A program made the position numbers and the translations under genes. Below are positions 2,177 through 14,780 of a stretch of DNA of 14,780 nucleotides, one piece after another. Numbering within the stretch: position 1 is the first letter of the stretch; each line of letters starts with the position of its first letter. Below the pieces are notes generated by a model. It saw nothing but the letters and a program-made list of their open reading frames with translations. It made no database searches and was not told the origin of the DNA. This DNA comes from a virus (lineage: Duplodnaviria; Heunggongvirae; Uroviricota; Caudoviricetes), in IMG/VR virus record IMGVR_UViG_2706794665_000005; one strand, given 5' to 3'.

Positions 2177-3028
2177 ATCTCACACCTCCCGGAATCCCCG
2201 CTGAAGCCATCATTAATGCGGCATCATCCACCATGACATCCGCCACATCCGCAGACGATAAAATATCGCGCCCTCCGTCCCCACCGAACCGGACGCCTCC
2301 GGCAAGTCCTGCCGCTTTCTGCATCAGCATTTTGTCCTCATCCGGCCTCTCCACCTGCTCTTCCTCATGCCGGGGGACAAGCAGACTGAAATCAGAGGGA
2401 TGCATATCCGGATCGCAAAAAAACAGGCTGAGTACAGCGTACGTCAGCCCGGAAAAATGCATATCCAGCTGGGTATCCTGAAAATAATGCGTGCGGTAAA
2501 AACGGTGCCAGTCGGCATATTCGGTGGATGTCATCCCGGCAAGCATGGCGCGCCAGTCGGGTCTCCCCATCTCACGCGCCAGTCTGAGGGCAAAGTTCAG
2601 CTCGCCGTCGAAGACTTTCCCGCAGAAAAATCATCATCAGTCAGCGTGTTATTTTTCGCCACTTCAGTAATATCAGTATCCGGACGAACAGCTTCGATCA
2701 TCCCGGACAGGCACAACACCACGTCTTCCGCCCGGGCAATGGCATCGGCAGGCCAGGTGGTGAGCACTTCCTGCTCTATCTTCATCACGGCCTCATTCAT
2801 TGACGGTGACTGCGTTTTCTGTGGATGGTTATGCCACAGGGACATCGCCACCAGAAACGCGCCGGTTCTGACGAGATCTTCCACGCTTACCTGCAGGTTG
2901 CCGCTGGATTCTGCCTGTTCTGCACGCCGTTTCAGGAGGGCAAGATGCTCGATACGCTGCAGCGCAGACAATTCGGAAAGCGTGACAGACACACCGTTAT
3001 ATTCAAATTGTTCTGTTTTCAGAAACAT
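2157..3028 (-). CDS. T: Tail assembly chaperone G-T fusion, made by programmed -1 frameshift near the 3' end of G
   Basis: Slippery heptamer GGGAAAG (minus strand, plus coords 2615-2621) lies in codons ...GCG GGA AAG... of G. The -1 frame continues as ...GKVFDGELNFALRLAREMGRPDWRAML..., which is the 2157..2570 ORF, ending 20 nt inside H. Classic lambda G/G-T arrangement. Confidence 0.8.
2597..3028 (-). CDS. G: Tail assembly chaperone gpG
   Basis: 143-aa ORF MFLKTEQFEYNGVSVTLSELSALQRIEHLALLKRRAEQ..., GGAGG SD 6 nt upstream of ATG, position between V and H, lambda G-like sequence. Confidence 0.9.
   Translation of the reverse strand: MFLKTEQFEYNGVSVTLSELSALQRIEHLALLKRRAEQAESSGNLQVSVEDLVRTGAFLVAMSLWHNHPQKTQSPSMNEAVMKIEQEVLTTWPADAIARAEDVVLCLSGMIEAVRPDTDITEVAKNNTLTDDDFSAGKSSTAS
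2615..2621 (-). other. -1 programmed ribosomal frameshift slippery site (G GGA AAG)
   Basis: Exact heptamer GGGAAAG on coding strand, 6 codons before the G stop, with the T frame open downstream. Confidence 0.8.
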
Positions 3029-3041
3029 GTATTACCTCCGT

Positions 3042-3794
3042 TTACCCTGCAGCGCCCGCTTCAGTAACGGTGACTTCAGCCACTGCGGCGAACTGACCAT
3101 TTCCGCTCACCACAGGGATCTGCACCTTACCTGTCGCCACGCCGTTTACCGTAATTGTCATATCTTTCACACTAATGGTGGCTTTCGACGGATCGGCGGA
3201 AACCGCTCTGAACGTCTTGTCGGTTGCACTTTCCGGCTCAAAAGAAACCGTCAGGGTGGTTGTTTTCCCTTTTGCCACCGTACCGGATGTCGGCGTCACC
3301 TTAATCGCACTGACCGGCGTAATTTTGCTGCGTTCTTCCGCTACAGAAGGTTTACCCACGTTAGTGACTTTCACCGTGCGGGTGATCACTTCTTTCGCCG
3401 TCACGGCCTTACCGATACTGCTGACCCAGCCACGAAACACATCCACCGTGCCATTCGGAAAACGGATTTTATAGGCCCGGACATCGCCGCTTTCAAACCA
3501 GCCTATAAGCCCTTTCTGGCCTTCCTCTCCCGGTTTCCAGGCCAGCGTAAAACTGGTATCACCTGCAGATTTCTGCCCCTGACCGGTCGCGGTCCAGTCC
3601 GCGTCTTCATCATCCAGGTAGTTATCATCGTAGGATTCTGCCGTCATCTCGCCCGGCGTCAGATCCTTCACCTTAGCCAGTCGCTGCCAGTCATCGTCTG
3701 ACAACGGGTTTGCATAAGCATCACCCTTGCCGTTGTAAACCCACAGAGTGGTACCGGCACCTTTTACCGGCTCAAGGGGATTTGGTGTTGCCAT
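3042..3794 (-). CDS. V: Major tail tube protein gpV with C-terminal Ig-like (Big_2-type) domain
   Basis: 250-aa [52 protein letters not shown]..., strongly lambda V-like; C-terminal T/V/S-rich beta-rich tail typical of the Ig-like domain. Confidence 0.95.
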
Positions 3795-3801
3795 ATCGTC
3801 C

Positions 3802-4197
3802 TCACATCTCGTATGTAATGGAATAAGTCAGATCTGCAGAACTCCATAACGCCATATCGTCATCACGACGATACTCATAGCCCTGCGTAACCATCGTGGT
3901 AATCAGTCCTGCCAGTGCCGGGATCGCGGTCATCGCCGGGTAAATCCGGCTTTCCATCCACTGATCAAGCTCTGAATCCGGTACCTGTGCCGGTAAAAAC
4001 ACCTCAATATGCAGCGTGGCCCGCCAGGTATCTGCATCCAGCTCTTCACCGGTATACTCTGCATCCGTCAGATAAACCGCGATCGCAGGAAAATCCTCTT
4101 CGTCAAAAACAACGGGGCGACCATCAAACAGCGTCGCCCCGTGTTCATGCTGCTCGAGTGCATCCAGCACTGCGGCACGAATGTCAGTGTGTTTCAT
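3802..4197 (-). CDS. U: Tail terminator protein gpU
   Basis: 131-aa [57 protein letters not shown]..., lambda U-like; ATGA start/stop overlap with Z. Confidence 0.95.
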
Positions 4198-4727
4198 CGT
4201 TTTATTGCAATCCTCAGTTGTTGTTTCAGCGCGTATGCCAGTTCTTTAGGCAGGCGTTCACGCCGGATACGGTCAACATTCTCATCAAATGCCTGTTTCA
4301 GTGGGGCCGCCATCGGGATTTTCACCACATCAATGGGGTAACGGTTTTTCCCGGCCACACGCTGCATGACATGCCAGCGACCATTTTTTAATCGCTGAAT
4401 AAATGCCCGCTGATACCGATGCTGACCGGCTTTAAGTATGCTGTTCGGGCGACGCCCCAGCATCCTGATCCCCAGCTTAATCACAGGGAGATCACCGCGG
4501 TTAACGATAATTCTGGCATTCGGATTTCTGACCGTCGCCCGTTTCAGTCTGGACCGTTCCTTAACCAGTTTCCGGCGAACCTTTGTCTCCCGGGCAACCT
4601 GTGATGAAGACTGATTAATCGCCGTTGTGGCCACGCGGTTAATGGCCATTGCTGAAGCCGCCGGAATGGCGTTTTTACGAACCCGGCTCAGATTGTCAAT
4701 CGCCTGATCAAGCCCTTTTATCGCCAT
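4194..4727 (-). CDS. Z: Tail completion protein gpZ
   Basis: 177-aa ORF MAIKGLDQAIDNLSRVRKNAIPAASAMAINRVATTAINQSSSQVARETKVRRKLVKER..., N- and C-terminal thirds lambda Z-like, middle divergent; position between FII and U. Confidence 0.88.
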   Translation of the reverse strand: MAIKGLDQAIDNLSRVRKNAIPAASAMAINRVATTAINQSSSQVARETKVRRKLVKERSRLKRATVRNPNARIIVNRGDLPVIKLGIRMLGRRPNSILKAGQHRYQRAFIQRLKNGRWHVMQRVAGKNRYPIDVVKIPMAAPLKQAFDENVDRIRRERLPKELAYALKQQLRIAIKR

Positions 4728-4742
4728 AATTTCACCCTGCGT

Positions 4743-5096
4743 TTATCGTCGCCGGTTAACTGCGGGTGGTTGACCACGGTTGAGCCAGAGATAACAGCTG
4801 CCCCCGTCATCCGGAGAAACACGATCCACCCAGAATATCTCACCATTAATGGTCAGCGTGTCACCACGCCGCACGGCACGAACCGTATCCGTCCGCACAA
4901 ATAATGACGGGCTGCTTCCTTCAATACGGACCCCGCCACCGGCAAACCCCAGCGACTCCGGATCGTCAAAAACCCCCTGAACTTCGCTGCCACACTGTGC
5001 CCCCGAGGTGAACTGCGCACAGAGCCCCATCACTTCAACGATCGTACTGTCTACCCCGGCGAGGGCAGCATCAAAGGCATTCTGAAAATCACGCAT
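4743..5096 (-). CDS. FII: Head-tail connector protein gpFII
   Basis: 117-aa ORF with ...GVFDDPESLGFAGGGVRIEGSSPSLFVRTD...WVDRVSPDDGGSCYLWL...PPAVNRRR, lambda FII-like; overlaps FI stop by 8 nt. Confidence 0.92.
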   Translation of the reverse strand: MRDFQNAFDAALAGVDSTIVEVMGLCAQFTSGAQCGSEVQGVFDDPESLGFAGGGVRIEGSSPSLFVRTDTVRAVRRGDTLTINGEIFWVDRVSPDDGGSCYLWLNRGQPPAVNRRR

Positions 5097-5472
5097 ATTC
5101 AGCCGTTCCGTGCTGTATCATGGCCGTTGCCAGTGATGATGGCACCAGAACACGCATACCCCGTAACGCCAGCTCAACGGGACGACCTGTCTCCGGGCAA
5201 TACCCCATTACTTGCAGGCACTTCCGTACCCGGACGGCTTTAACATCATCCGGAGCATCCGTGTTGTTCAACTGCTCACCATCGTCTGTGTGATTTTGAT
5301 CAGCCCCGCTCTCATCAGAGTGCATAATGCCCTCCGGGGAAACAGCAAGCTCCTCTTCCCACTCAGACACACGTTGAGCAATATCCGCAGCACTCCCCGA
5401 CATATCCGCCTCGCGCCCCAGCAGGCCAGCCAGTTGACGAAGACGATTCAGATTTTCTTCTTTTGTTGCCAT
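5089..5472 (-). CDS. FI: DNA packaging protein gpFI (position-based call); start placed at internal ATG
   Basis: Track ORF 5089..5520 begins at a GTG. ATG at 5470-5472 has an AGGAGG SD 6 nt upstream and gives a 127-aa acidic protein MATKEENLNRLRQLAG.... Position between E and FII matches lambda FI; sequence is only loosely FI-like from memory. Confidence 0.7.
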   Translation of the reverse strand: MATKEENLNRLRQLAGLLGREADMSGSAADIAQRVSEWEEELAVSPEGIMHSDESGADQNHTDDGEQLNNTDAPDDVKAVRVRKCLQVMGYCPETGRPVELALRGMRVLVPSSLATAMIQHGTAEYA

Positions 5473-5485
5473 CTCAGCCTCCTGT

Positions 5486-5516
5486 GAAAAAAGACACGGG
5501 GGCATTTCGCCCCCGC
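5486..5516 (-). terminator. Putative intrinsic terminator/attenuator between E and FI
   Basis: On the minus strand: 7-bp GC stem CGGGGGC/GCCCCCG (plus 5497-5503 and 5509-5515) with 5-nt loop, followed by GUC and a U6 tract (plus 5487-5492), directly after the E stop and before the FI SD. Confidence 0.4.
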
Positions 5517-5523
5517 TCACGGA

Positions 5524-6552
5524 TTATTTCACCTGTACCACCACAAACTCATCCGGATCCGGCAGCACCATCAGCGGAGCGGACTGCGTCATGGTGAATT
5601 CACAGGACGGATCGCCCACGGTCAGCCAGTGTTTCGGGTAACGGGAAGAAGCCACCACTCCTTCAGACAACGCCTGTGCATCCTTAATGGCACCATAGCA
5701 ACGAATCCCCTCTGCCGCCGTATTCCCCAGCACCAGCATGCCCTCCGGCAGATAACGTTTTTCGGTACCGTCCTCTGCCACATAAGACGTTTTCGCCACC
5801 ACAATGGCCAGATCGCCGTAATACCCCTTGAAGGACACCACTGCGCCCAGATCTTTCACTGCCGTTTCGAGTTGTGAATTTGAGCCGCGACGGGTATCCA
5901 GTTTTTCGCGGAACAGCTTAAAGCCATTCAGCAGACGCCAGACCGTACCGTCCATAATGGCGATATTCACAAGGCCGCTGGCCTGATCGCAGTAGAGGTC
6001 AATATCATGCGTCGGATCAAACGTATCACGGTCCTGCTCAGACCATTTTTTACCGTCAGCCTGCTCAATGTTATTTCCTTCAGAGCGCCCGAAATCCACC
6101 TCGACAGTATCAAACTGATCCCCTTCCATGGTGTATTTGCCATACAGCACGGCATTCACCGCCTGCATTTCTTCCACCTGGACAATGGCGTGCTCTTCCT
6201 GTTTGAGGTTATCGGTAATGATACGCAGACGACGGTAGGCCGGGTCGTTCAGCTGAGCCGGATCTTCACCAGGAAGGCGCTCAACCGCCTGCTGGTAATT
6301 AAATTCGTGTTTGGGCTTGACGTAGCCCGGACGTAACACGCGGGTTTCACCACCGCGATGGCGAAGCACTTTTCCTTCAACGATCGGGGAGACATAGGCC
6401 GCCACCGGCGTTTTTCCGGTAATTTTGTCCAGCATCACCTCTTCGGTGTGGAAATTCACCGTACGGCGGAAAAACAGCTCCAGAAACAGCGCACGGAATT
6501 TCACTTTTTGTTCGGTATAACCGAGTAACTGGCGGGTCGTAAACAATCCCAT
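5524..6552 (-). CDS. E: Major capsid protein gpE
   Basis: 342-aa ORF MGLFTTRQLLGYTEQKVKF...LDTRRGSNSQLETAVKDLG...SAPLMVLPDPDEFVVVQVK, colinear with lambda E (341 aa). Confidence 0.96.
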   Translation of the reverse strand: MGLFTTRQLLGYTEQKVKFRALFLELFFRRTVNFHTEEVMLDKITGKTPVAAYVSPIVEGKVLRHRGGETRVLRPGYVKPKHEFNYQQAVERLPGEDPAQLNDPAYRRLRIITDNLKQEEHAIVQVEEMQAVNAVLYGKYTMEGDQFDTVEVDFGRSEGNNIEQADGKKWSEQDRDTFDPTHDIDLYCDQASGLVNIAIMDGTVWRLLNGFKLFREKLDTRRGSNSQLETAVKDLGAVVSFKGYYGDLAIVVAKTSYVAEDGTEKRYLPEGMLVLGNTAAEGIRCYGAIKDAQALSEGVVASSRYPKHWLTVGDPSCEFTMTQSAPLMVLPDPDEFVVVQVK

Positions 6553-6609
6553 AAATCAGTTCCTTTCATTCAGAAATCAGTCAGGCCGCCATGGTGGCCT
6601 GATAACGTG

Positions 6610-6957
6610 TTACGGCAGAGCCGCGTGACTCAGGGCTGTGCCGGCAAAGGCATTTGCCTTTTTGTGTTCATCCACACTGTCAGGCCAGCGGATTGCCTCC
6701 GTCGCAAAGGTCCCCGACTTGTAATAGGTCAGCACCGTCTCTGTGCCTTCAAGCGGCAGTACCAGTATGCCAACCGCACTACCGGCTTTCTGTCCATCCC
6801 AGACCACCAGTTTCCCGGTGGCTTCATCCAGCATCAGGGGCGTCAGAGCCGGTGTTGCAGAAGAAATCCCGCTGCTGCCTGTGGCGGTATGAGCCGGATC
6901 ATTACCGGCAAAAATACGTACTTCCGCACGCTGTTCAGTGATGGTTTTCGTCACCAT
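6610..6957 (-). CDS. D: Head decoration protein gpD
   Basis: 115-aa ORF with ...NDPAHTATGSSG...TPLMLDEATGKLVVWDG...YYKSGTF...ANAFAGTA..., lambda D-like. Confidence 0.92.
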   Translation of the reverse strand: MVTKTITEQRAEVRIFAGNDPAHTATGSSGISSATPALTPLMLDEATGKLVVWDGQKAGSAVGILVLPLEGTETVLTYYKSGTFATEAIRWPDSVDEHKKANAFAGTALSHAALP

Positions 6958-6993
6958 TTTGTTAAAACCTCATATTGATGGTCAGCACTGACT

Positions 6994-7816
6994 TCATGGC
7001 ATGGCCATGAGCATTTTCACGTCCGCATCACCGTCTGCTGACGTCTGTGACACGCCACCCCGCACCGCTGCCGGTGAATGATTCGCCATGAAATGTTCAA
7101 ACAAGGCGGTTGTGGATGCAGAGACCGGTTCGGCCTTACCTGATCCCGCAGCCAGCACAGCCCGGGCGTTCTCCACGGTCATTCCCGGGCAGGCCGCCAG
7201 TTTTTCAGCCTGCGCTTCTGCCCCTTTTGCCTCATCCAGGGCCATGATCTGATCACGAAGTGAGGGCCCGGCATTCGCCTGCGGTNNNNNNNNNNNNNNN
7301 NNNNNNNNNNNNNNNNNNNNNNNNNNNNNNNNNNNNNNNNNNNNNNNNNNNNNNNNNNNNNNNNNNNNNNNNNNNNNNNNNNNNNNNNNNNNNNNNNNNN
7401 NNNNNNNNNNNNNNNNNNNNNNNNNNNNNNNNNNNNNNNNNNNNNNNNNNNNNNNNNNNNNNNNNNNNNNNNNNNNNNNNNNNNNNNNNNNNNNNNNNNN
7501 NNNNNNNNNNNNNNNNNNNNNNNNNNNNNNNNNNNNNNNNNAGGATCCCCATCACTCGCTGGTTCTCCTGCGCGGCAGCTTCCGTTGCAGTTAATTGCGG
7601 CATAGTGCCTCCTGTATCATGAGTGTTCAGCGCCGCAGCCATCACGCTGATGGCATCCGACGCATTGATTAATTCATCCGCCAGTCCGGCCTTAATAGCG
7701 GACTGACCTTCAAAAACGGCAGCCTCTGTCCCCGTGACAGCTTCCACAGACAGCCCCGTATACATCGCCACTTTTTCGGCAAACATCCGGTGCGCCGCAT
7801 CAACCCGCTGCTGCAT
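6994..7816 (-). CDS. Nu3: Scaffolding protein Nu3, nested in-frame in the 3' part of C; start uncertain
   Basis: In lambda, Nu3 is an in-frame internal initiation within C sharing its stop. Candidate internal ATGs at 7814-7816 (C codon 231) and 7784-7786 (codon 241) align near the lambda Nu3 start. Spans the gap. Confidence 0.45.
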
Positions 7817-8506
7817 GTCCTGACGCACCTCTGCCGGTAAGGCTTCAAACTGATTGCCATCCACCTTGTGCGCCCCGGCATAAATCAGCGTGATATCCAC
7901 CCCGGCCTGCGCCAGATGACCGGCATAGCTGACATGGCTCATCATCACGCCAATGGAGCCGATACGGGATGTCTGGGTAACCAGCCGTCGGGAGCAGGCC
8001 GACGCCAGCAGCATGGCTGCAGAACAGGCCGTGTCATTGCACAGTGCCCAGACCGGCTTCTGCTGACGGAGGCGGTAAATCATGTCAGCGCAGTCAAACG
8101 CGCCGGCGGCCTGCCCGCCCGGACTGTCAATGTCCAGCAGTACGCCCCGCACCTGGCTATCTGCCATTGCCTGCTGAAGACAGGCGACAATGCCGTCATA
8201 GCCTGTCATTCCGGAAAATGGCCGCATACCGCCCAGCCGGTGCACCAGCGTGCCGGTCACCGGCAGTACAGCAATACCGTTCACCACCCGGTAAACACGG
8301 GCCGGTCGTTTACCTCCGGCCATGTACTCGTCCGTTTCAGCCAGCATTCCGGGAGCATCAAGCTGTACCTGCTGTTGTGGTACCGAAAGACTTGCTGCCC
8401 CCATCTCGCGCCCGAGCGCGCAAAAGAAAACCCGCGCATAGGCGGGCTCCAGAAGCAGCGGTTCATTGAATGCTGCGGCAATAATGTGTGAAAGATTACG
8501 TCTCAC
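6994..8506 (-). CDS. C: Head maturation protease/scaffold gpC (S49 ClpP-like peptidase domain), interrupted by an assembly gap
   Basis: GTG start at 8504-8506 overlapping the B stop. Pre-gap 321 codons (MRRNLSHIIAAAFNEPLLLEPAYARVFFCAL...ENQRVMGI) are lambda C-like. Post-gap frame (...PQANAGPSLRDQIMALDEAKGAEAQAEKLAACPGMTVENARAVLAAGS... to TGA at 6994) matches the lambda C/Nu3 C-terminus. The stop at 7253 in the track is an artefact of the N-run length. Confidence 0.85.
7286..7541. other. Assembly gap (256 N)
   Basis: Uninterrupted run of n. Flanking sequence on both sides belongs to the same gene, and the frames on the two sides differ by 1 nt, so the N length is nominal. Confidence 0.99.
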
Positions 8507-10088
8507 GTGGTGTTGTCTCCTCTTCCGGCCTGCGACTCTCCGCTATCTGCTGCTGATACGCCTGCGCTATCCACACCGGACGTGAGAGTCCGGCTTTTTC
8601 CCGCTCTGCAGATTCCCTGACCTGCTGGCGGAAAATGTCCTGATAATCCTCGCCCATCAGCGCCAGCTCTTTCTCATACGTGCTCAGTCCGGCCTCAATG
8701 CGCATCACTGATTCCTGAACCTCCTTGAGCCCGTCAATGGCCATTCTTCCGGCTCCAATCCACTCAGCCCGTGACCAGGCTGATCGCGCCTGATAAAAAT
8801 CAAAACGTGCCCGTGGCGGACGAATAATCCCCCGAAGAAGTGCCTCTTCCAGCCAGCAGGAAAACATCTGCGTGGCCAGCCGGGACGCAATAAATTTTCG
8901 CCGCCCCATAAAATAGCGCCACGACTCATTGGCGGATGCGCGGGCACTTGAATAACTGACCTTCGAGTAATCACGGGACAACTGTTCGTAGGAAACGCCA
9001 AGACCGGCGGCGATATACCGCAGCAGCGCCTGTTCAAGCGCCGAAAATCCATTGTCTGAATCCTGCGCGGTCTGAAGTTTCAGATCATCACCGGGGAAAA
9101 GGTGCGGAATTTTGACACCGCCCAGCGTCACGCTATTCGTGTCATACCAGGTGGAGAACTTATCCAGAATATTAATAAGCGGATTATCCTTCTGCCCCTG
9201 CGGCGCACCGGCGATATATTCAAAGGCCTTTTCGGTATCAAGGTCACTTTCAATCGTCGCTGCATACATCGCCTTCACTATGGCCGACTGAAGCTGTGTT
9301 GCCTGCAGGGAATCGAGCATCTTCAGCCGTTCCATTACGCTGTAAAACTGATTGGCTCCACGGGTCTGCCCGTCCTCCACCGGCTCGAAAATATGCAGCA
9401 TGGCCGGACGCCCGGTGGGAAGTTCACGCGGGATCCGTTCCCATCGTCCACTCCCAGAGAACGGAAAATCATCCTCACAGATATGGTACGCAACGGCACG
9501 ACCATATCGATCGACCTCCACACCGGCCCGCAGAAAACGGTTCCCCATACCGTGTCCTGGCGTGTCCACCCGTTTCGGACTCACGGCTTTAAAACGCGTA
9601 CGAAACAGTTGCGTGCTCTCCGTATCCCAGACCGGCTGCACAAAGATTTCGCCGTTAAACGCATGAACGCCCACACCTTCACGGATAAATTCCGTAAACG
9701 TGCGTTTCCCTTCCACGTCGATCTCGCCAAACATCCCTTCGGCGTATTCCGACCAGGCCGCCTCCACCTCATCGACAAAACTTTTTGCCGCAGTCTCCCG
9801 CATCCCCAGCCAGCGCCAGTTCGGACGGTAGCTGATCAGAAACATATGCCCGACAATATGATCCTTATGCAGGGCCACCGCATTAGCCGCTATCCCGTTA
9901 TTGCGCACCAGATCATCTGCCCGGGCATTCCCCAGACGCAACGCAGGCAGCAGGGCTGCATCGGCACTCTGCGCCGGTGGCAACCACTCCGCCATTTGCC
10001 CGCCAAATCCTGCGCCGCCCCCGTTGTAGCTGAGACTCTCACGAAGCGGAACGCCGTTCACATCAATCAGGACAGGCGTTCGTTTCAT
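8496..10088 (-). CDS. B: Portal protein gpB
   Basis: 530-aa ORF MKRTPVLIDVNGVPLRE...GGGAGFGGQ...RGNARADDLVRNNG...RGANQFYSVMERLKMLD...LLRYIAAGLGVSYEQLSR..., colinear with lambda B (533 aa); ATGA overlap with W. Confidence 0.96.
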   Translation of the reverse strand: MKRTPVLIDVNGVPLRESLSYNGGGAGFGGQMAEWLPPAQSADAALLPALRLGNARADDLVRNNGIAANAVALHKDHIVGHMFLISYRPNWRWLGMRETAAKSFVDEVEAAWSEYAEGMFGEIDVEGKRTFTEFIREGVGVHAFNGEIFVQPVWDTESTQLFRTRFKAVSPKRVDTPGHGMGNRFLRAGVEVDRYGRAVAYHICEDDFPFSGSGRWERIPRELPTGRPAMLHIFEPVEDGQTRGANQFYSVMERLKMLDSLQATQLQSAIVKAMYAATIESDLDTEKAFEYIAGAPQGQKDNPLINILDKFSTWYDTNSVTLGGVKIPHLFPGDDLKLQTAQDSDNGFSALEQALLRYIAAGLGVSYEQLSRDYSKVSYSSARASANESWRYFMGRRKFIASRLATQMFSCWLEEALLRGIIRPPRARFDFYQARSAWSRAEWIGAGRMAIDGLKEVQESVMRIEAGLSTYEKELALMGEDYQDIFRQQVRESAEREKAGLSRPVWIAQAYQQQIAESRRPEEETTPRET

Positions 10089-10291
10089 AACCTCACTCCC
10101 AGCGGACGACGGCGACGTCGGGTTGTCCCCAGTACCGACTCCGCATCATTGATCGCCCGGTTAAGCTCATCCAGAGAAGCCTCCGTATATTCAATTCTGC
10201 GACCATCTTTCTGGACAGACACCACCCGTTTACCGGTTAATAAATCAAGGCGCGCCTGACGCAGCGCCTGCAGTTCAGCGACTGTAACCAT
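10085..10291 (-). CDS. W: Head completion / head-tail joining protein gpW
   Basis: 68-aa [46 protein letters not shown]..., lambda W-like and the same length. Confidence 0.9.
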   Translation of the reverse strand: MVTVAELQALRQARLDLLTGKRVVSVQKDGRRIEYTEASLDELNRAINDAESVLGTTRRRRRPLGVRL

Positions 10292-12203
10292 TCACTCCTC
10301 CGGACAGCTTCGCTGCCAGTTCTTTAAGGGTTGGCCGGGTCGTCTCTTCTTCCCGGGATTTTGCCAGTACAGCCAGATCAAGCTGCCAGCGTTGCACGGA
10401 CACACGTAATGCCGCATAGGCATACACCAGGCAGTCCAGCGCTTCGTTACGCCGCTTTTTGTTATCCCACAGCAGACGCATCTTTCCTTTTTCCCACTTC
10501 TCCACAAGCTCTTCCGCGACCAGTTGCTGCGCCTCTGTCTGCGAAAAAATCTCCGGATCATCAGGAAAACGGATGGCATACGACGTGGCTTCATCCGCAG
10601 GAGTGGGATCGGCTTTCATACGGGCATAGAGAATTTCTTTTGCGGTGTCCGTCCCCACTTCACACAGATACACGCCCCGCTGATTGCGGGTTTTCGGCAT
10701 GGTGATCACCGGCTTGCCATAGACAGATGCGCCTTTTACCGGCAGCACCCGGAAAACACCGTGTTTTTTTGACCTCTGATAGACAATTTCACCATCGATC
10801 CCCCCGGTGTCCCAGCAGACACGGGAAATGGTCATTTCGGTTCCGTCTGCATGGCAGTATTTTTTGTTGATCGCCGCATCCACACGTAACAGCGTCTCTT
10901 CCTCATCGGGACGGCCCATAATGATGATTTTATCCACCAGAAAAGCTTCCTCTCCCGGTGCCCATCCCCAGACATACATCTCAAAACGGTTTCGCTGCGA
11001 GTCAATGCCCGCCGTCAGATAAACCACCCGGGCTGGCACCGCCGCCGTGTAATGCACGACCTTATCCATCAGTACCTGGTGATCGAGTTTTTCGCCCACG
11101 GCCTCTTCCCAGGTCTCGCCCAGCGTGGTGTTCACAAAGGTTTTCAGGCCGTTGGGATCTTTCAGTGCATCCAGCCAGTCATAGACTATCTGTACCCAGG
11201 TGGTGAACGGACTGTACGCCGTCCAGATATGGAACGTGATGGAGCGCGGCGGCGGAATTTCATTATCCGCGGCGCTGAAAAACGTCAGACCGTCACGGGT
11301 CCACATCCCCGTGTTTTCACAGATCCACCGCCCGTTGCTCTGGTCAAGCTCAGACTGATGGATCACGCAGCCATGATGTTCACAGAGGTAGAAAACGCTT
11401 TCGGGGCTGTCCTTCTCCCATTTAAGGCCAAAAGGCGTGGATTCATCGCCAAATTTCAGATACTGCTCCTCCCCACAGTGTGGGCAGGGCACATAAAAAC
11501 GCATGAAATGCGCCGACTCGTTGGCCGCTTTTTCGATCTGGCAGGTGCCTTTGATTTTAGGCGTCGAGCCGCGAATGGATTTGGGCCATACAGAGCCCTC
11601 AATACGTTTATCCCCAAGCAGGGTTGGCGACCCCTCTTTTTCGACATCCGGTTCGAACGAGGAAAGTTCGTCATAGCAGACCACGTCCACGGATTTTTCA
11701 CGGTAGTTTTTAGCGGCAGCCCCGCCCAGGCACCAGAAGCCCACGCCCGATGAAAAACGTTTCAGCGTGAGGGTATTATCACGATGTTTACGCCCAAACC
11801 ACGGTGCAAGATCGAGTAAAACCGGCACATCCCTGATCGTGGGTTCCACATGAGATTTCATAAAATCTTCAGCAGCAGAATCCGTGGGCTGGAAAAGAAG
11901 GCTGTTGCGTGATTTATGCTCAATAAAATAAGCCTCCACTCCCAGCAACATCTTTGTATAACCAACACGGGCAGATTTAATCAGATTAACAGTGCGGATC
12001 CGGTCATTCCCCATGCTGTTCATGATGGCAACCTGAAACGGCAGTGTTTCCCACCGCCCCGGGGTGTAAGATGACTCTTTCGGAAGGTAATAATGTCGAT
12101 CTGCCCACTGAACTGTCGTCAGAGGGACAGGAATTTTTAGCGCAAGGAGGCCGGTTGCTATCGCTCCTGCAGAATTAGCCGCCCTCAGTTCGTCTGAAAT
12201 CAT
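10275..12203 (-). CDS. A: Terminase large subunit gpA
   Basis: Track ORF 10275..12245 is over-extended. ATG at 12201-12203 (GGTGGA SD) gives [13 protein letters not shown]...[28 protein letters not shown]..., colinear with lambda A, and overlaps the Nu1 3' end by 29 nt (26 nt in lambda). Confidence 0.95.
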
Positions 12204-12723
12204 CAATCCACCTGCGCACATTCTCACCGGCTTCAGAAGCCACATCGGATGCTTTCGCGATTTCAGTTTTCACAGCATCAAGATGTACGGGTGATATATC
12301 AGGGTATTTACGCTGCAGTGTCTGAGGGACACGGACAAGGATCCCTGATATATTCTGTGCCACTCGCTGAAAGATGTAGGTAAATAACTCCGTCTCGAGG
12401 ACAAGGCCTTCCTCACGAGCATTTTTCAGCTCCTGTGCATCGGCCTGTGCCTTCGTCAGTCGGTAACGTTCGTAATCAATGGTGCCGGGCTGAAGGTCTG
12501 ATTCGCTGGCAGCCCTCAAATCCTCGATCTCTTTACGGAGTTTTTCGTTTTCAATATCAGCTTCCCTCTGCGCATACCACTGAATGGCAGCAGTTGTATC
12601 AAAAACTGATTCAGTCCCTTTCCCTCCACCAGAAACTAGTGGTAACCCCTGACTCTGCCAGGCGGTGATGGTCCTGACATCAACGCCAAAAATATCGGCC
12701 AGTTTTTTCTTATTGACGTTCAT
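12175..12723 (-). CDS. Nu1: Terminase small subunit Nu1 (winged-HTH cosB-binding N-terminus)
   Basis: 182-aa [45 protein letters not shown]...[15 protein letters not shown]...; lambda Nu1-like, with a different putative recognition helix (lambda has IRTIQNWQEQG). Confidence 0.92.
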
Positions 12724-12737
12724 ACACTCCCCCGGGA

Positions 12738-12855
12738 ACCAGAAAGGATCTGAAAATGGCGTTTTCTAACAAAAACAGCCTTTGTCAGATCCTTTTATAT
12801 TTTTAAAATTCTATTGATAATCAATCAGTTAAAAAGAAGAAGAACGGATCTGATT
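12738..12855 (-). promoter_or_regulatory. cosB: three Nu1-binding R elements (R1 about 12741-12759, R2 about 12779-12798 inverted, R3 about 12834-12855) flanking an IHF site
   Basis: Minus-strand repeats TCAGATCCGTTCTTC (R3), TCAGATCCTTTCTGG (R1) and an inverted copy in R2. Same spacing and orientation pattern as lambda R3-I1-R2-R1, but core CAGATCC replaces lambda CGTTTCC; each element contains GATC. Confidence 0.6.
12819..12831. promoter_or_regulatory. IHF binding site (I1-like) between R3 and R2
   Basis: aatcaatcagtta matches the IHF consensus WATCAANNNNTTR exactly, in an AT-rich context, at the position of lambda I1. Confidence 0.55.
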
Positions 12856-12892
12856 TTTCCCTAAAAATTTTCATAAATAGCGAAAACCCGCG

Positions 12893-12904
12893 AGGTCGCC
12901 GCCC
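12893..12904. other. cosN cohesive-end site (12-nt overhang GGGCGGCGACCT on the phage top strand)
   Basis: Plus aggtcgccgccc is the reverse complement of GGGCGGCGACCT, identical to the lambda cohesive end. Flanks match lambda: CGCGGGTTTTCGCTATTTATGAAAATTTT on the Nu1 side and ...GGTCCTTTCCGG...GTTACG on the other side. Confidence 0.88.
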
Positions 12905-12937
12905 CGTAACGGCCCGGATCGCCGGAAAGGACCCGCA

Positions 12938-12960: not shown

Positions 12961-13064
12961 CAATGTAGTCCGGTTTCTTCCACCATCGCACCGGACAGGC
13001 GACTATGAGGGGACAACGCCGCGCTCCGTTAACGCGGTAAACCCCGGTGTGTATCGTTTTTGAT

Positions 13065-13129
13065 TATCCCCGCACACTCGCGCAGAGGAGTCTCCCGGTC
13101 GGGCTGCGGTCTCTGTTAATGCGGGGATA
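13065..13129. repeat. Inverted repeat tatccccgca ... tgcggggata (10-bp arms, 45-nt spacer) between Rz and cos
   Basis: Arms at 13065-13074 and 13120-13129 are exact reverse complements; no U-tract follows on either strand, so this is not a canonical terminator. Confidence 0.4.
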
Positions 13130-13157
13130 CGGCGACAATACCGCGCATCAGCAAAAC

Positions 13158-13625
13158 TTATTTCAGGCACTGAGTGCGGATATATTCCTGCGCCACTTCC
13201 AGCTGCTTCTGCATCAGCATCAACCGCTCTCTGAGAGTGAAATAATCCCGTTCAGCGGTGTCTGCCAGTCGGGGGCCGGTTGCATTATCCACGCCGGAGG
13301 TGGTGGGGGCTTCACGCACGGTACCGGGGCAGGTGGCGTTGATCCGCAGGCGCTTACGACCAGCGGCAACGTCAGCGCGCAGAGTTTCATTTTCAGCTCT
13401 CGCATCGGCTAATTCCCTCGAGTATCTGGCATCAAGTGCAGCAACATCACGCTGGCGCTGCTGCATATCAGTAATGGTTGCATTTGCCTGCTCCAGCTCA
13501 CTGACTTTTTTATCGCGCTGCTCTTTGTAGGTTATGGCGTTATCACGGTAATGATTCAGCCCCAGACTAAGCGCACCACAGGCCACCAGCAGGGCAATGA
13601 TGACCACGCACAGTACGCGGTTCAT
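13158..13625 (-). CDS. Rz: Spanin inner-membrane subunit Rz (i-spanin)
   Basis: 155-aa ORF MNRVLCVVIIALLVACGALSLGLNHYRDNAITYKEQRDKK...; N-terminal TMD plus coiled-coil region; lambda Rz-like. Confidence 0.92.
   Translation of the reverse strand: MNRVLCVVIIALLVACGALSLGLNHYRDNAITYKEQRDKKVSELEQANATITDMQQRQRDVAALDARYSRELADARAENETLRADVAAGRKRLRINATCPGTVREAPTTSGVDNATGPRLADTAERDYFTLRERLMLMQKQLEVAQEYIRTQCLK
13220..13405 (-). CDS. Rz1: Spanin outer-membrane lipoprotein Rz1 (o-spanin), embedded in the +1 frame of Rz
   Basis: 61-aa ORF MRELKMKLCALTLPLVVSACGSTPPAPVPCVKPPPPPAWIMQPAPDWQTPLNGIISLSESG; lipobox VSAC, proline-rich, lambda Rz1-like, wholly inside Rz. Confidence 0.88.
   Translation of the reverse strand: MRELKMKLCALTLPLVVSACGSTPPAPVPCVKPPPPPAWIMQPAPDWQTPLNGIISLSESG
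13583..13590 (-). other. Chi octamer 5'-GCTGGTGG-3' on the minus strand
   Basis: Plus ccaccagc, exact; inside the Rz N-terminal codons (LLVA). Confidence 0.6.
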
Positions 13626-13626
13626 T

Positions 13627-13764
13627 TCACCACCAGCGTATCTGACCGATGAAATAACCGGAGGCCATAATCACAAACACCAGCCAGATAAGAATGAACT
13701 TCCAGGTGGATAATTTTTCAGCCATCACTCGAATCTCCCGAATCAGTTTGCTAAAATCAAACAC
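13627..13764 (-). CDS. Small hypothetical single-pass membrane protein (45 aa from GTG; 32 aa if ATG at 13725)
   Basis: Hand translation MFDFSKLIREIRVMAEKLSTWKFILIWLVFVIMASGYFIGQIRWW*. AAGGAG SD 5 nt before GTG at 13762-13764; stop TGA ends 1 nt before the Rz ATG. One hydrophobic stretch of about 20 residues. Below the ORF-track size cutoff; no homolog recognised. Confidence 0.35.
   Translation of the reverse strand: MFDFSKLIREIRVMAEKLSTWKFILIWLVFVIMASGYFIGQIRWW
13630..13637 (-). other. Chi octamer 5'-GCTGGTGG-3' on the minus strand
   Basis: Plus ccaccagc, exact; last codons (RWW) of the small ORF, just upstream of the Rz start. Confidence 0.6.
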
Positions 13765-13800
13765 ACTTTCTCCTTTGACTTTTCCGGAGTCAGGAAACAC

Positions 13801-13834
13801 AAAACCCCGCTTGGTGCCAACAAACGGGGTTTTT
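13801..13834. terminator. GC-rich hairpin flanked by T-tracts on both strands (bidirectional intrinsic-terminator-like) between R and the small ORF
   Basis: aaaaccccg (13801-13809) pairs with cggggtttt (13825-13833); loop contains the sub-palindrome ttggtgccaa. U-tract follows the stem on the plus strand (tttttactttt) and on the minus strand (UUUUGUGUUU). Confidence 0.45.
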
Positions 13835-13922
13835 ACTTTTATTCACTTACGTTTCGCCACTTCGCAGGATTTCATGTTATCCGCCCGCGTGGCCATGCCT
13901 TATTTTCAGCAAAATATTCTGC

Positions 13923-14456
13923 TTATCTGTCGATACCCCAGCACGCCAGCGCGCTCTCCTGGTCACGCCGTGAGACCTGTCCATAGCAGTTATTTGAACG
14001 AATACGGCAGTCTCTGCCACCGTCCTTAATCCACCAGCGAATCGCCTCACATGCTCCCCTGCGATCGCCAGCATTAATTCGTCTGTAAAACGTCGACGGG
14101 AAACACTTACCGGGACCAATGTTGTACGGACAGAATGACGCGATCCCCGCTTTCTGGGGTTCACTCAATGGCACTCTGATGTTTTTCTCCACCCATGCCA
14201 GCGCCTTATCACGCTCAATGGCGTTAACCCGGTCGCATTTTTCCTTCGACAACTTCATGCCCGGAACGACAGGTTTGCCATCCACCAGGATGGCACCGCG
14301 GCAGATGGTCCAGATACCCGCGCCATCACGGTATGCCGTGGTGTGGTTACCTTCCTTTTCATCCAGAAACTGGTCGAGAATGTCAGGCGCAGGCGCACCA
14401 GCGGCAATCAGTGCCAGAACGGCAGCCGACAGGCCGTATCTGATTTTTGCGTTCAT
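13923..14456 (-). CDS. R: SAR (signal-anchor-release) endolysin, T4-lysozyme-like muramidase (GH24)
   Basis: 177-aa ORF MNAKIRYGLSAAVLALIAAGAPAPDILDQFLDEKEGNHTTAYRDGAGIWTICRG.... Gly/Ala-rich weakly hydrophobic N-terminal segment (residues about 8-24) typical of a SAR domain. E35/D44/T50 spacing matches the catalytic triad of phage 21 R-type lysozymes; resembles E. coli cryptic-prophage RrrQ-type lysozymes from memory. Confidence 0.9.
   Translation of the reverse strand: MNAKIRYGLSAAVLALIAAGAPAPDILDQFLDEKEGNHTTAYRDGAGIWTICRGAILVDGKPVVPGMKLSKEKCDRVNAIERDKALAWVEKNIRVPLSEPQKAGIASFCPYNIGPGKCFPSTFYRRINAGDRRGACEAIRWWIKDGGRDCRIRSNNCYGQVSRRDQESALACWGIDR
14031..14038 (-). other. Chi octamer 5'-GCTGGTGG-3' on the minus strand
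   Basis: Plus ccaccagc, exact; inside R (codons RWW of ...EAIRWWIKDGG...). Confidence 0.6.
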
Positions 14457-14519: not shown

Positions 14520-14780
14520 TTAAGGTTGTGATTCCGGAGGAGTCTTCAGAGAACCAGTAATTCTTCCTGGTAGCTTTCCTTTGTAGGTTATCCACACATT
14601 CTGCGCCTCTAAAATTACGGGGCGCTTTTCCGGCGACTGCTCATCCCCTTCACATAACCCGGCAGCAACATCCAGGAAGACCTGAGGTGTACTGGCAATA
14701 GCGGACACTACCATTTGTTCTTTTTTTAAGCAGCCATCTGATGATATTTTTCCCTGAAGGCTGCCGGGGAGATATTCCCC
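14520..14780 (-). CDS. Hypothetical protein, C-terminal 86 aa; 5' end beyond the window edge
   Basis: Frame open from the window edge to TAA at 14520-14522: GEYLPGSLQGKISSDGCLKKEQMVVSAIASTPQVFLDVAAGLCEGDEQSPEKRPVILEAQNVWITYKGKLPGRITGSLKTPPESQP*. Hydrophilic, so not a holin. Sits immediately upstream of the endolysin. Confidence 0.5.
   Translation of the reverse strand, partial: GEYLPGSLQGKISSDGCLKKEQMVVSAIASTPQVFLDVAAGLCEGDEQSPEKRPVILEAQNVWITYKGKLPGRITGSLKTPPESQP

What the first reader, a model, noticed from the sequence alone, without database searches (positions are those of the whole stretch)
13583..14038. Three Chi sites in the RecBCD-active orientation clustered within about 1.1 kb of the right cos end
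Exact GCTGGTGG octamers occur on the minus strand at 13583-13590, 13630-13637 and 14031-14038, which is 678 to 1126 bp inside the right cohesive end (cosN 12893-12904). The minus strand is the phage top strand, whose 3' end is at that cos end, so a RecBCD enzyme entering at cos and moving inward would meet all three in the recognised orientation. By eye I found no GCTGGTGG in the opposite orientation anywhere in the window and no other same-orientation copies in the remaining 13 kb. A random 8-mer is expected about 0.02 times per strand in 1.5 kb. Such a cluster could blunt RecBCD degradation of cos-cut concatemer or genome ends, acting as a passive anti-RecBCD device.
Basis: partly seen in the sequence, partly recalled or inferred. 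Interest (0 to 1): 0.55.

Follow-up and report, generated by a model that had tools for sequence, protein, structure and literature searches.

The report
Chi sites beside a prophage cos end
Three correctly oriented copies of the E. coli RecBCD recognition sequence (Chi) sit inside the lysis genes just inside the right cohesive end of a lambda-like prophage, a real but already published kind of pattern rather than a new device.

Summary
The window holds exactly three GCTGGTGG, all on the minus strand (the phage top strand), 678-1134 bp inside a lambda-identical cosN. No copy lies on the other strand.

All three are in coding sequence: the endolysin R (R-W-W), the last codons of a small membrane ORF that overlaps the Rz ribosome-binding region (R-W-W-stop), and the Rz signal anchor (L-L-V-A). 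Given these proteins and the local codon usage, 0.62 Chi are expected (P(>=3)=0.01).

In the source genome the trio belongs to a Chi-rich right arm: 8 top-strand and 4 bottom-strand copies in 11.5 kb, against none in the 12.9-kb head/tail arm.

This pattern is published for lambdoid phages that lack Gam and recombinase genes (Bobay 2013; Zheng et al. 2025). Phage LLS carries the homologous endolysin Chi.

Evidence for selection on these sites is mixed. The synonymous base that creates the endolysin Chi is the most conserved four-fold site across 137 alleles. The other two sites switch on and off through synonymous changes. The trio also occurs in Gam+ Stx phages.

"Passive anti-RecBCD device" is only part of the accepted model, and it is not novel.

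The parts
14031..14038 (-). Chi site 1, inside endolysin gene R (codons CGC-TGG-TGG, Arg140-Trp-Trp, motif EAIRWWIKD)
   Evidence: Exact match. It is present in all 88-91 related loci and at the homologous position in phage LLS. The third base of Arg140 is the least variable of 45 four-fold sites across 137 alleles.
13630..13637 (-). Chi site 2, in the last codons (CGC-TGG-TGG-TGA) of a small membrane ORF, 5 nt upstream of the Rz start. It overlaps a GGTGGTGA Shine-Dalgarno-like stretch.
   Evidence: Exact match. Translation, and the ORF matches phrog_6632. Relatives carry CGT or CTC instead of CGC, which removes the Chi. The ribosome-binding-site overlap is my inference from the sequence.
13583..13590 (-). 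Chi site 3, in the N-terminal membrane anchor of Rz (codons CTG-CTG-GTG-GCC, L-L-V-A)
   Evidence: Exact match. Relatives carry GTA or GTT at Val14. That base ranks 48th of 49 four-fold sites from least to most variable.
12893..12904 (-). cosN, the 12-nt cohesive-end sequence GGGCGGCGACCT on the minus strand, identical to lambda's
   Evidence: Sequence. The lambda cos sequence is quoted. cosN lies 170 bp upstream of the Nu1 start.
13923..14456 (-). R, endolysin with an N-terminal hydrophobic segment (177 aa, 933W/Stx-phage type)
   Evidence: Pfam Phage_lysozyme, 1.4e-23; phrog_7 endolysin.
13627..13800 (-). Small ORF (32-57 aa, one hydrophobic helix) between R and Rz, function unknown
   Evidence: phrog_6632, 1.4e-29. 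Called as a 71-aa gene in L014, L015 and L018.
13158..13625 (-). Rz i-spanin (155 aa), with the embedded Rz1 o-spanin candidate at 13220-13405
   Evidence: Pfam Phage_lysis, 8e-49; phrog_13. The Rz1 translation contains LVVSAC, which looks like a lipoprotein signal-peptide cleavage motif.
10275..12723 (-). Terminase genes Nu1 (12175-12723) and A (10275-12245), which define the left end and the direction of packaging
   Evidence: Pfam Phage_Nu1 1.6e-86; GpA_ATPase and GpA_nuclease.

Best explanation
These are three genuine Chi octamers embedded in the R / small-ORF / Rz lysis cassette of a lambda-type cos prophage of Escherichia or Shigella. They form the cos-proximal end of a Chi-rich right arm.

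Proposed mechanism:
1. Terminase cuts cos and stays on the Nu1 (left) side. The right end is free, and it is also the end injected first on infection.
2. RecBCD loads on that end and moves inward along Rz, then R.
3. It meets the three Chi from their 3' side within 0.7-1.1 kb.
4. A single Chi is recognised only part of the time, so three in a row raise the chance of an early response.
5. After recognition, degradation of the 3'-ended strand is attenuated and RecA is loaded. The end then survives and recombines with another phage copy, which helps produce packageable concatemers.

Shown here: the sites, their strand, their distance from cos, their coding context, the Chi-rich right arm against a Chi-free left arm, and strong synonymous conservation at site 1.

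Inferred: RecBCD entry at this end, a benefit to the phage, and that this prophage lacks Gam and a recombinase.
For: - Exact sites and strand. Lambda-identical cosN and lambda-type Nu1/gpA.
- Source genome L013 (100% identical): 8 top and 4 bottom Chi in the 11.5 kb upstream of cos, and none in the left arm. Window left arm: 0 in 12.9 kb. Binomial P=0.0025 for the top strand.
- Pooled relatives: 18 distinct top-strand Chi contexts and 0 bottom-strand within 4 kb upstream of cos. The left arm has 3 and 0.
- Codon-resampling null: 0.62 expected against 3 observed, P=0.010. The null never gave more than three, so all three positions that can encode Chi appear to be 'on'.
- Site 1: the Chi-making synonymous base is C in 127 of 136 alleles, entropy 0.41 against a median of 1.48, rank 1 of 45. 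Neighbouring synonymous sites vary freely.
- Relatives with no detectable Gam, Bet, Erf or Abc2 are Chi-rich on the top strand: L001 10/2, Stx2_95 15/3, Stx2c 15/3, LLS 20/3. Inhibitor-positive relatives are Chi-poor: 4/1, 3/0, 5/0.
- Published model and orientation rule: PMC12315714 and PMC3784561.
Against: - Sites 2 and 3 are lost by single synonymous changes in about a third to half of related loci. Val14 of Rz is among the most variable four-fold sites.
- Within the close R subfamily, invariance of the site-1 codon is unremarkable, because 38% of four-fold sites are invariant there.
- The trio is present in Gam+Bet+ Stx1_9793, and sites 2-3 in Abc2+Erf+ CP-1639. It therefore tracks the cassette, not Rec status.
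- All late genes are on the top strand, and the R/Rz proteins offer almost no way to encode a bottom-strand Chi (null mean about 0.03). Strand bias in this block is therefore not independent evidence.
- The window's total count does not exceed E. coli's average density.
- The early-left operon of the source prophage could not be read.
- An IS sits between the holin and R in this copy, so this particular prophage may be defective.
- No experiment has been done.
Confidence: 0.62

Rival explanations
1. The trio is a coding by-product inherited as a block. The peptides R-W-W (twice) and L-L-V-A, combined with E. coli-like codon usage, yield GCTGGTGG with appreciable probability. The trio simply rides with a very successful lysis cassette. 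It is not maintained by selection for RecBCD interaction, although it would still be recognised if RecBCD passed.
For: All three sites are in ORFs. Per-site probabilities are 0.21, 0.21 and 0.19. Sites 2 and 3 toggle through synonymous changes, and Val14 is hypervariable. The trio is present in Gam+ and Abc2+ phages, including one with no other Chi in 50 kb. Within the close subfamily the invariance of site 1 is not significant. The cassette occurs in 5271 of 5426 E. coli genomes at some level of identity.
Against: The joint codon state has P about 0.01. Across 137 alleles the site-1 synonymous base is the single most conserved four-fold site. Chi arose independently just upstream of Rz in other spacer modules, L088 and L092. 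The head/tail arm has the same coding strand and similar codon usage but no Chi. Published class-level statistics argue for selection.
Confidence: 0.28
2. Selection acts at the level of the host chromosome. [quoted passage not shown] These help the host repair collapsed forks that pass through the prophage, and long-resident prophages drift toward the host's Chi density and polarity.
For: 98% of lambdoid prophages are co-oriented with the fork, and polar host motifs (KOPS) are over-represented in them (PMC3603311). In L001 the phage top strand is the + strand at 1.45 Mb of a genome that starts at thrL. By my reading of E. coli K-12 replichore layout that is the leading strand. Zheng et al. raise the same caveat for cryptic prophages. 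The source copy carries an IS.
Against: Host-level accumulation should be roughly even along the prophage. Instead the left arm has 0 in 12.9 kb and the right arm 8+4 in 11.5 kb. Local density is about 10 times the host's. Free-living isolates LLS and HannyBb carry the homologous endolysin Chi.
Confidence: 0.08
3. The trio protects the DNA end only. It acts purely to stop RecBCD degradation of cos-cut or freshly injected DNA. RecA-dependent recombination plays no role.
For: The same geometry as in the best explanation. Bobay et al. list protection from RecBCD exonuclease as one benefit of Chi. From my own knowledge of lambda, the right end is packaged last and injected first, so it is exposed before circularisation.
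Against: By my knowledge of RecBCD biochemistry, Chi does not shield DNA without RecA; a Chi-modified enzyme without RecA still leaves an unproductive end. The published phenotype for LLS is growth enhanced by RecBCD, not merely tolerated, and recD mutants support growth. That points to recombination.
Confidence: 0.1

Closest known systems
Right-end-clustered, top-strand Chi sites of lambdoid phages without a Rec module (phage LLS type; Zheng, Casjens, Davidson, Amundsen & Smith, Genome Res 2025, PMC12315714)
   Same: Both are lambda-type cos phages with Chi concentrated toward the right end on the strand that is active for RecBCD entering at the right cos end. The LLS endolysin carries Chi at the homologous EAIRWWIKD codons. 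The source genome's right arm (8 top, 4 bottom in 11.5 kb) falls in the range of that class.
   Different: LLS has a different Rz, and its Rz Chi is at another position. Absence of a Rec module could not be checked for the window's own prophage. The same trio also occurs in Gam+ Stx phages.
Chi enrichment between ori and cos in Gam/Abc2-less lambdoid prophages (Bobay, Touchon & Rocha, PLoS Genet 2013, PMC3784561)
   Same: The regional pattern matches: Chi lie between the replication genes and the terminase, and are sparse in the structural genes.
   Different: The passages of that study that I read gave no analysis of strand relative to cos and did not single out the lysis cassette. It relied mostly on prophages.
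Engineered or mutant Chi in lambda red gam (chi+ mutants; Lam 1974, Henderson & Weil 1975, Kobayashi 1982, as cited in PMC12315714)
   Same: The octamer, the orientation rule relative to cos, and the entry end are all the same.
   Different: Those are single sites created by mutation in a phage that naturally has none. Here there are three natural, coding sites within 456 bp.
Phage P1 (50 Chi in 94.8 kb; requires RecBCD), as described in PMC12315714
   Same: Both are temperate phages that are Chi-rich and exploit host RecBCD.
   Different: P1 is not lambdoid. It packages by the headful (pac) mechanism (my own knowledge), and its recombination is between terminal repeats.

Membership tests
E. 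coli Chi (crossover hotspot instigator) site | Exact octamer 5'-GCTGGTGG-3' | tested here: met
   Three exact matches.
E. coli Chi (crossover hotspot instigator) site | Approached by RecBCD from the 3' side of the octamer, that is, on the strand whose 3' end is at the entry end | tested here: met
   The sites are on the phage top strand, 678-1134 bp from its 3' end at cosN. The orientation rule is quoted from PMC12315714. That RecBCD enters at this end is inferred from lambda.
E. coli Chi (crossover hotspot instigator) site | Host whose RecBCD recognises this octamer (enteric bacteria) | tested here: met
   The cassette is 97.5-98% identical in E. coli chromosomes and 100% identical in several NCBI assemblies. 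The neighbouring protein is named E. coli throughout. The species name of CP179952.1 itself was not shown by the tools.
E. coli Chi (crossover hotspot instigator) site | Measured hotspot or nuclease-attenuation activity, including the influence of 3' flanking context | not testable with these tools
   This needs genetic crosses or in vitro RecBCD assays.
LLS-type 'no Rec module, high Chi' lambdoid phage (Zheng et al. 2025) | Lambdoid genome with lambda-type terminase and a 12-nt 5' cohesive end | tested here: met
   cosN is identical to lambda's. Nu1, gpA, W, portal, and lambda C-, D- and E-type head-gene families are present.
LLS-type 'no Rec module, high Chi' lambdoid phage (Zheng et al. 2025) | No strand-annealing protein, no Gam/Abc2, and no Rec module in the early-left operon | not testable with these tools
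The closest complete relative, L001, has only a DnaQ-like exonuclease there and no tblastn hit to Gam, Bet, Erf or Abc2. Because the cassette is mosaic, this is only indicative.
LLS-type 'no Rec module, high Chi' lambdoid phage (Zheng et al. 2025) | At least 8 top-strand Chi and no more than 6 bottom-strand Chi per genome | tested here: met
   L013 already shows 8 top and 4 bottom in the 20.5 kb that is visible. The rest of the genome was not seen.
LLS-type 'no Rec module, high Chi' lambdoid phage (Zheng et al. 2025) | Significant right-end clustering of top-strand Chi (Kolmogorov-Smirnov test on the whole genome) | tested here: inconclusive
   The whole genome is not available. Right arm against left arm is 8 against 0 (P=0.0025). 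Within the right arm the sites are bimodal, in the lysis cassette and in the Q/nin/methylase region.
LLS-type 'no Rec module, high Chi' lambdoid phage (Zheng et al. 2025) | Growth enhanced by host RecBCD | not testable with these tools
   This is an experimental test.

The most novel reading that the evidence does not exclude
The R / small-ORF / Rz trio may be a cassette-borne block of Chi next to cos that is kept whether or not the phage has Gam and a recombinase. In the Gam+ Bet+ Stx1a phage Stx1_9793 these are the only three Chi in 50 kb. The synonymous base that makes the endolysin Chi is the most conserved four-fold site across 137 alleles. That would point to a role distinct from 'Rec-less phages compensate with Chi'. 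One possibility is protecting the right end, which is injected first and packaged last, at times when Gam is absent or titrated out. Another is seeding RecA filaments during induction.
Probability: 0.15. Interest if true: 0.5.

Novelty: new member of a known kind. Interest (0 to 1): 0.25.

Why it matters
The finding adds a concrete and very widespread example to a known rule: lambdoid phages that rely on host RecBCD carry Chi sites oriented for entry at the right cos end. This lysis cassette is found in Stx-converting and many other E. coli prophages.

Its practical value is that nature has already made the control alleles. Synonymous Chi-off variants exist at sites 2 and 3 (CGT, GTA), and rare CGT and CGA alleles exist at site 1. 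The cassette also occurs in both Gam+ and Gam- genomes. Together these would make the published model easy to test.

It does not open a new question.

Tried and rejected
- I tried to read the early-left (Rec/Gam) region of the exact source prophage. Rec status is therefore inferred from relatives and from Chi density.
- The genome-contig scan with Rz returned few useful loci, mostly lambda-type Rz without Chi.
- Within-gene codon permutation treated site 2 as intergenic and was degenerate for the small ORF. I replaced it with codon resampling.
- Invariance of the site-1 codon within the close R subfamily looked suggestive, but 38% of four-fold sites are invariant there. Only the wider 137-allele set gave a signal.
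- I looked for an association between the on/off state of the trio and Gam status in eight whole genomes. None is visible, and the sample is too small for a test.
- I considered using the bottom-strand Chi excess in the right arm as evidence against orientation selection. Two of the four are the other halves of palindromic or hairpin Chi pairs, so they are not independent.
- No supplementary tables of Zheng et al. were available as text.
Full report
**1. Observation**

An exact scan of both strands finds three GCTGGTGG, at 13583-13590, 13630-13637 and 14031-14038. All are on the minus strand and there are no others. The window contains a masked run of 256 N at 7286-7541. The source locus L013 is 100% identical on both sides of that run and has no Chi in the corresponding 249 nt, so nothing is hidden.

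The sequence aggtcgccgccc at 12893-12904 is the reverse complement of lambda's cohesive end GGGCGGCGACCT (lambda sequence quoted). On the minus strand it is followed by Nu1 (Pfam Phage_Nu1, 1.6e-86) and gpA. The minus strand is therefore the lambda top strand. Its recessed 3' end lies at 12905, and the three sites start 678, 725 and 1126 bp inside it.

**2. Is it more than chance?**

The answer depends on the null model.
- Dinucleotide shuffles expect 0.71 sites in the window. Nine of 200 shuffles reach three or more.
- At E. coli's own Chi density of 1 per 4.6 kb, about 3.2 are expected. The count alone is therefore ordinary for enterobacterial DNA.
- The placement is not ordinary. Three uniformly placed sites fall within 456 bp with P=0.003. 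The top-strand density in the last 1.9 kb is about ten times the host's favoured-strand density.
- All three sites are coding, so I also held the proteins fixed and redrew codons from window-wide usage. This gives 0.62 Chi expected in the R / small-ORF / Rz block, with P(>=3)=0.010. No resampled sequence ever had more than three. The block appears to offer only three peptide positions that can encode Chi, and all three are in the Chi state here.

**3. What the sites sit in**

- Site 1 is CGC-TGG-TGG (Arg140-Trp-Trp, motif EAIRWWIKD) in a 177-aa endolysin with an N-terminal hydrophobic segment, of the 933W/Stx-phage type.
- Site 2 is the last three codons (CGC-TGG-TGG, then TGA) of a small hydrophobic ORF. 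The ORF matches phrog_6632 and is called as a gene in some assemblies. The site ends 5 nt before the Rz ATG and overlaps a GGTGGTGA stretch that resembles a Shine-Dalgarno sequence. That overlap is my inference.
- Site 3 is CTG-CTG-GTG-GCC in the membrane anchor of Rz.

The first 98 bases of the phage-oriented window (14683-14780) are the end of an IS3-family element inserted in the DUF1327 gene between the holin and R. This particular prophage copy may therefore be defective. IS-free copies that are 100% identical exist, for example L016.

**4. Wider context in the same genome and in relatives**

L013 (CP179952.1) has 8 top-strand and 4 bottom-strand Chi in the 11.5 kb upstream of cos, spanning Q, a methyltransferase, cargo genes and the lysis cassette. 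It has none in the 9 kb downstream. The window's 12.9-kb head/tail arm also has none. For the top strand this contrast has binomial P=0.0025. Two of the four bottom-strand copies are the partner halves of a CCACCAGCTGGTGG palindrome and of a hairpin.

Pooling 37 related loci that contain cos gives 18 distinct top-strand Chi contexts and no bottom-strand contexts within 4 kb upstream of cos. The left arm gives 3 and 0.

Whole genomes that share the cassette split as the literature predicts. Counts are top-strand/bottom-strand.

| Genome | Gam/Bet/Erf/Abc2 | Chi top/bottom |
|---|---|---|
| L001 | none detected | 10/2 |
| Stx2_95 | none detected | 15/3 |
| Stx2c_JNE102208 | none detected | 15/3 |
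| LLS | none detected | 20/3 |
| HannyBb | none detected | 5/2 |
| VT1-Sakai | Gam+ Bet+ | 4/1 |
| Stx1_9793 | Gam+ Bet+ | 3/0 |
| CP-1639 | Abc2+ Erf+ | 5/0 |

The source genome's right arm alone falls in the Chi-rich range, which suggests that its prophage lacks an anti-RecBCD function. I could not read that region to confirm it.

**5. Are these particular sites under selection?**

The evidence is mixed.

For site 1:
- All 88-91 close loci keep it. Within that subfamily 38% of four-fold sites are invariant anyway, so this is not significant.
- Adding the LLS-type subfamily (about 72% amino-acid identity) changes the picture. LLS has Chi at the homologous codons, while the flanking synonymous sites differ.
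- Across 137 unique alleles the third base of Arg140 is C in 127, T in 6 and A in 3. Its entropy is 0.41 against a median of 1.48, the lowest of 45 four-fold sites. That is what purifying selection on the octamer would produce.

For sites 2 and 3 the opposite holds:
- Large allele families carry CGT instead of CGC and GTA instead of GTG, and intermediates exist.
- The Val14 third base of Rz is one of the most variable four-fold sites, ranking 48th of 49 from least to most variable.

Chi has also arisen in a different sequence context just upstream of Rz in two other spacer modules, L088 and L092.

Finally, the trio is not tied to Rec status. Stx1_9793 is Gam+ Bet+, and these are its only three Chi in 50 kb. 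CP-1639 (Abc2+ Erf+) keeps sites 2 and 3.

**6. Mechanism**

The orientation rule and the entry end come from lambda genetics as summarised by Zheng et al.. Terminase occludes the left end. RecBCD enters the right end and responds only to Chi on the top strand.

The steps after that are established RecBCD biochemistry and are recalled, not tested here. Recognition of a single site is partial. After recognition the enzyme stops degrading the 3'-ended strand, loads RecA, and ignores later Chi.

Three sites within 1.1 kb of the entry point would therefore raise the chance of an early switch and limit the loss of terminal DNA. The end could then recombine to form concatemers. By my knowledge of lambda, the right end is also the first to enter the cell on infection.

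**7. Comparison with what is known**

This kind of pattern is published.
- Bobay et al. 2013 reported Chi over-representation in lambdoid prophages that lack Gam/Abc2, concentrated between ori and cos.
- Zheng et al. 2025 showed that lambdoid phages without a Rec module have many Chi, mostly on the active strand and clustered at the right end. They also showed that phage LLS grows better with RecBCD.
- Window site 1 is homologous to one of the LLS sites.

The host-level alternative cannot be excluded on orientation alone. [quoted passage not shown] In L001 the phage top strand is the + strand at 1.45 Mb of a thrL-started genome, which I take to be the leading strand. The Chi-free left arm and the presence of the endolysin Chi in free-living isolates argue against that alternative.

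**8. Verdict**

It is best read as one more instance of a known pattern rather than a new anti-RecBCD device.

Two small additions come from this work. First, the endolysin Chi shows unusually strong synonymous conservation. Second, the trio persists in Gam+ Stx phages that have no other Chi. Neither has been followed up at scale.

Noticed in passing
window 7286-7541: A run of 256 N masks 249 nt inside the head protease/scaffold (lambda C-like, S49 peptidase) gene. This splits the ORF in the mechanical ORF list. The identical locus L013 shows the real sequence.
   Followed up: yes
window 14683-14780 (and L013 8575-9773): This is the end of an IS3-family insertion sequence (385-aa transposase with HTH_Tnp_1 and rve domains). 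It is inserted in the DUF1327/YdfR-like gene between the holin and R, leaving a 64-aa C-terminal fragment at 14520-14714. This prophage copy may be defective.
   Followed up: partly
L103 (Stx1a-converting phage Stx1_9793, LC645428) 26241, 26643, 26690: This is a Gam+ Bet+ phage. The only three Chi in the 50 kb read are exactly this R / spacer / Rz trio, all on the top strand. The 'Rec+ phages purge Chi' rule does not predict this.
   Followed up: partly
L013 3929-3942 and 3113-3145 (same in L001 16047-16060): There is a back-to-back Chi palindrome, CCACCAGCTGGTGG, inside the DNA methyltransferase gene. There is also a hairpin (GGCTGGTGGGTG ... CACCCACCAGCC) that carries Chi on both arms, upstream of that gene. 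Together they account for two of the four 'inactive-strand' Chi in the right arm.
   Followed up: no
window 13801-13833 (- strand): A strong terminator-like hairpin (13 bp stem, then a T-rich tail) lies between R and the small ORF/Rz. Rz expression would then need read-through by Q-modified polymerase or a separate start.
   Followed up: no
window 13627-13800 (- strand): A small conserved ORF (phrog_6632, function unknown; core sequence MAEKLSTWKFILIWLVFVIMASGYFIGQIRWW) with one hydrophobic helix sits between R and Rz. Its stop codon lies 1 nt before the Rz start. Stx phages have an ant gene at this position instead.
   Followed up: partly
window 13003-13170 (- strand): A 55-aa ORF between Rz and cos gives a PHROG hit to 'Rz-like spanin' (phrog_6954, 2e-14). 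It has no obvious membrane or lipoprotein signal, so it may be a remnant or a mis-clustered family.
   Followed up: no
Rz codon 14 (window 13583-13585 region) across 38 alleles: The synonymous third base of Val14, which switches Chi site 3 on and off, is one of the most variable four-fold sites in a gene where the median four-fold site is invariant (G 20, A 13, T 5). This could reflect recombination between allele families or alternating selection.
   Followed up: partly
window 1-12892: The whole head/tail arm (12.9 kb, 54% G+C across the window, all genes on the phage top strand) has no Chi on either strand. It does have 20 one-mismatch Chi-like octamers on the top strand against 5 on the bottom strand.
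   Followed up: partly
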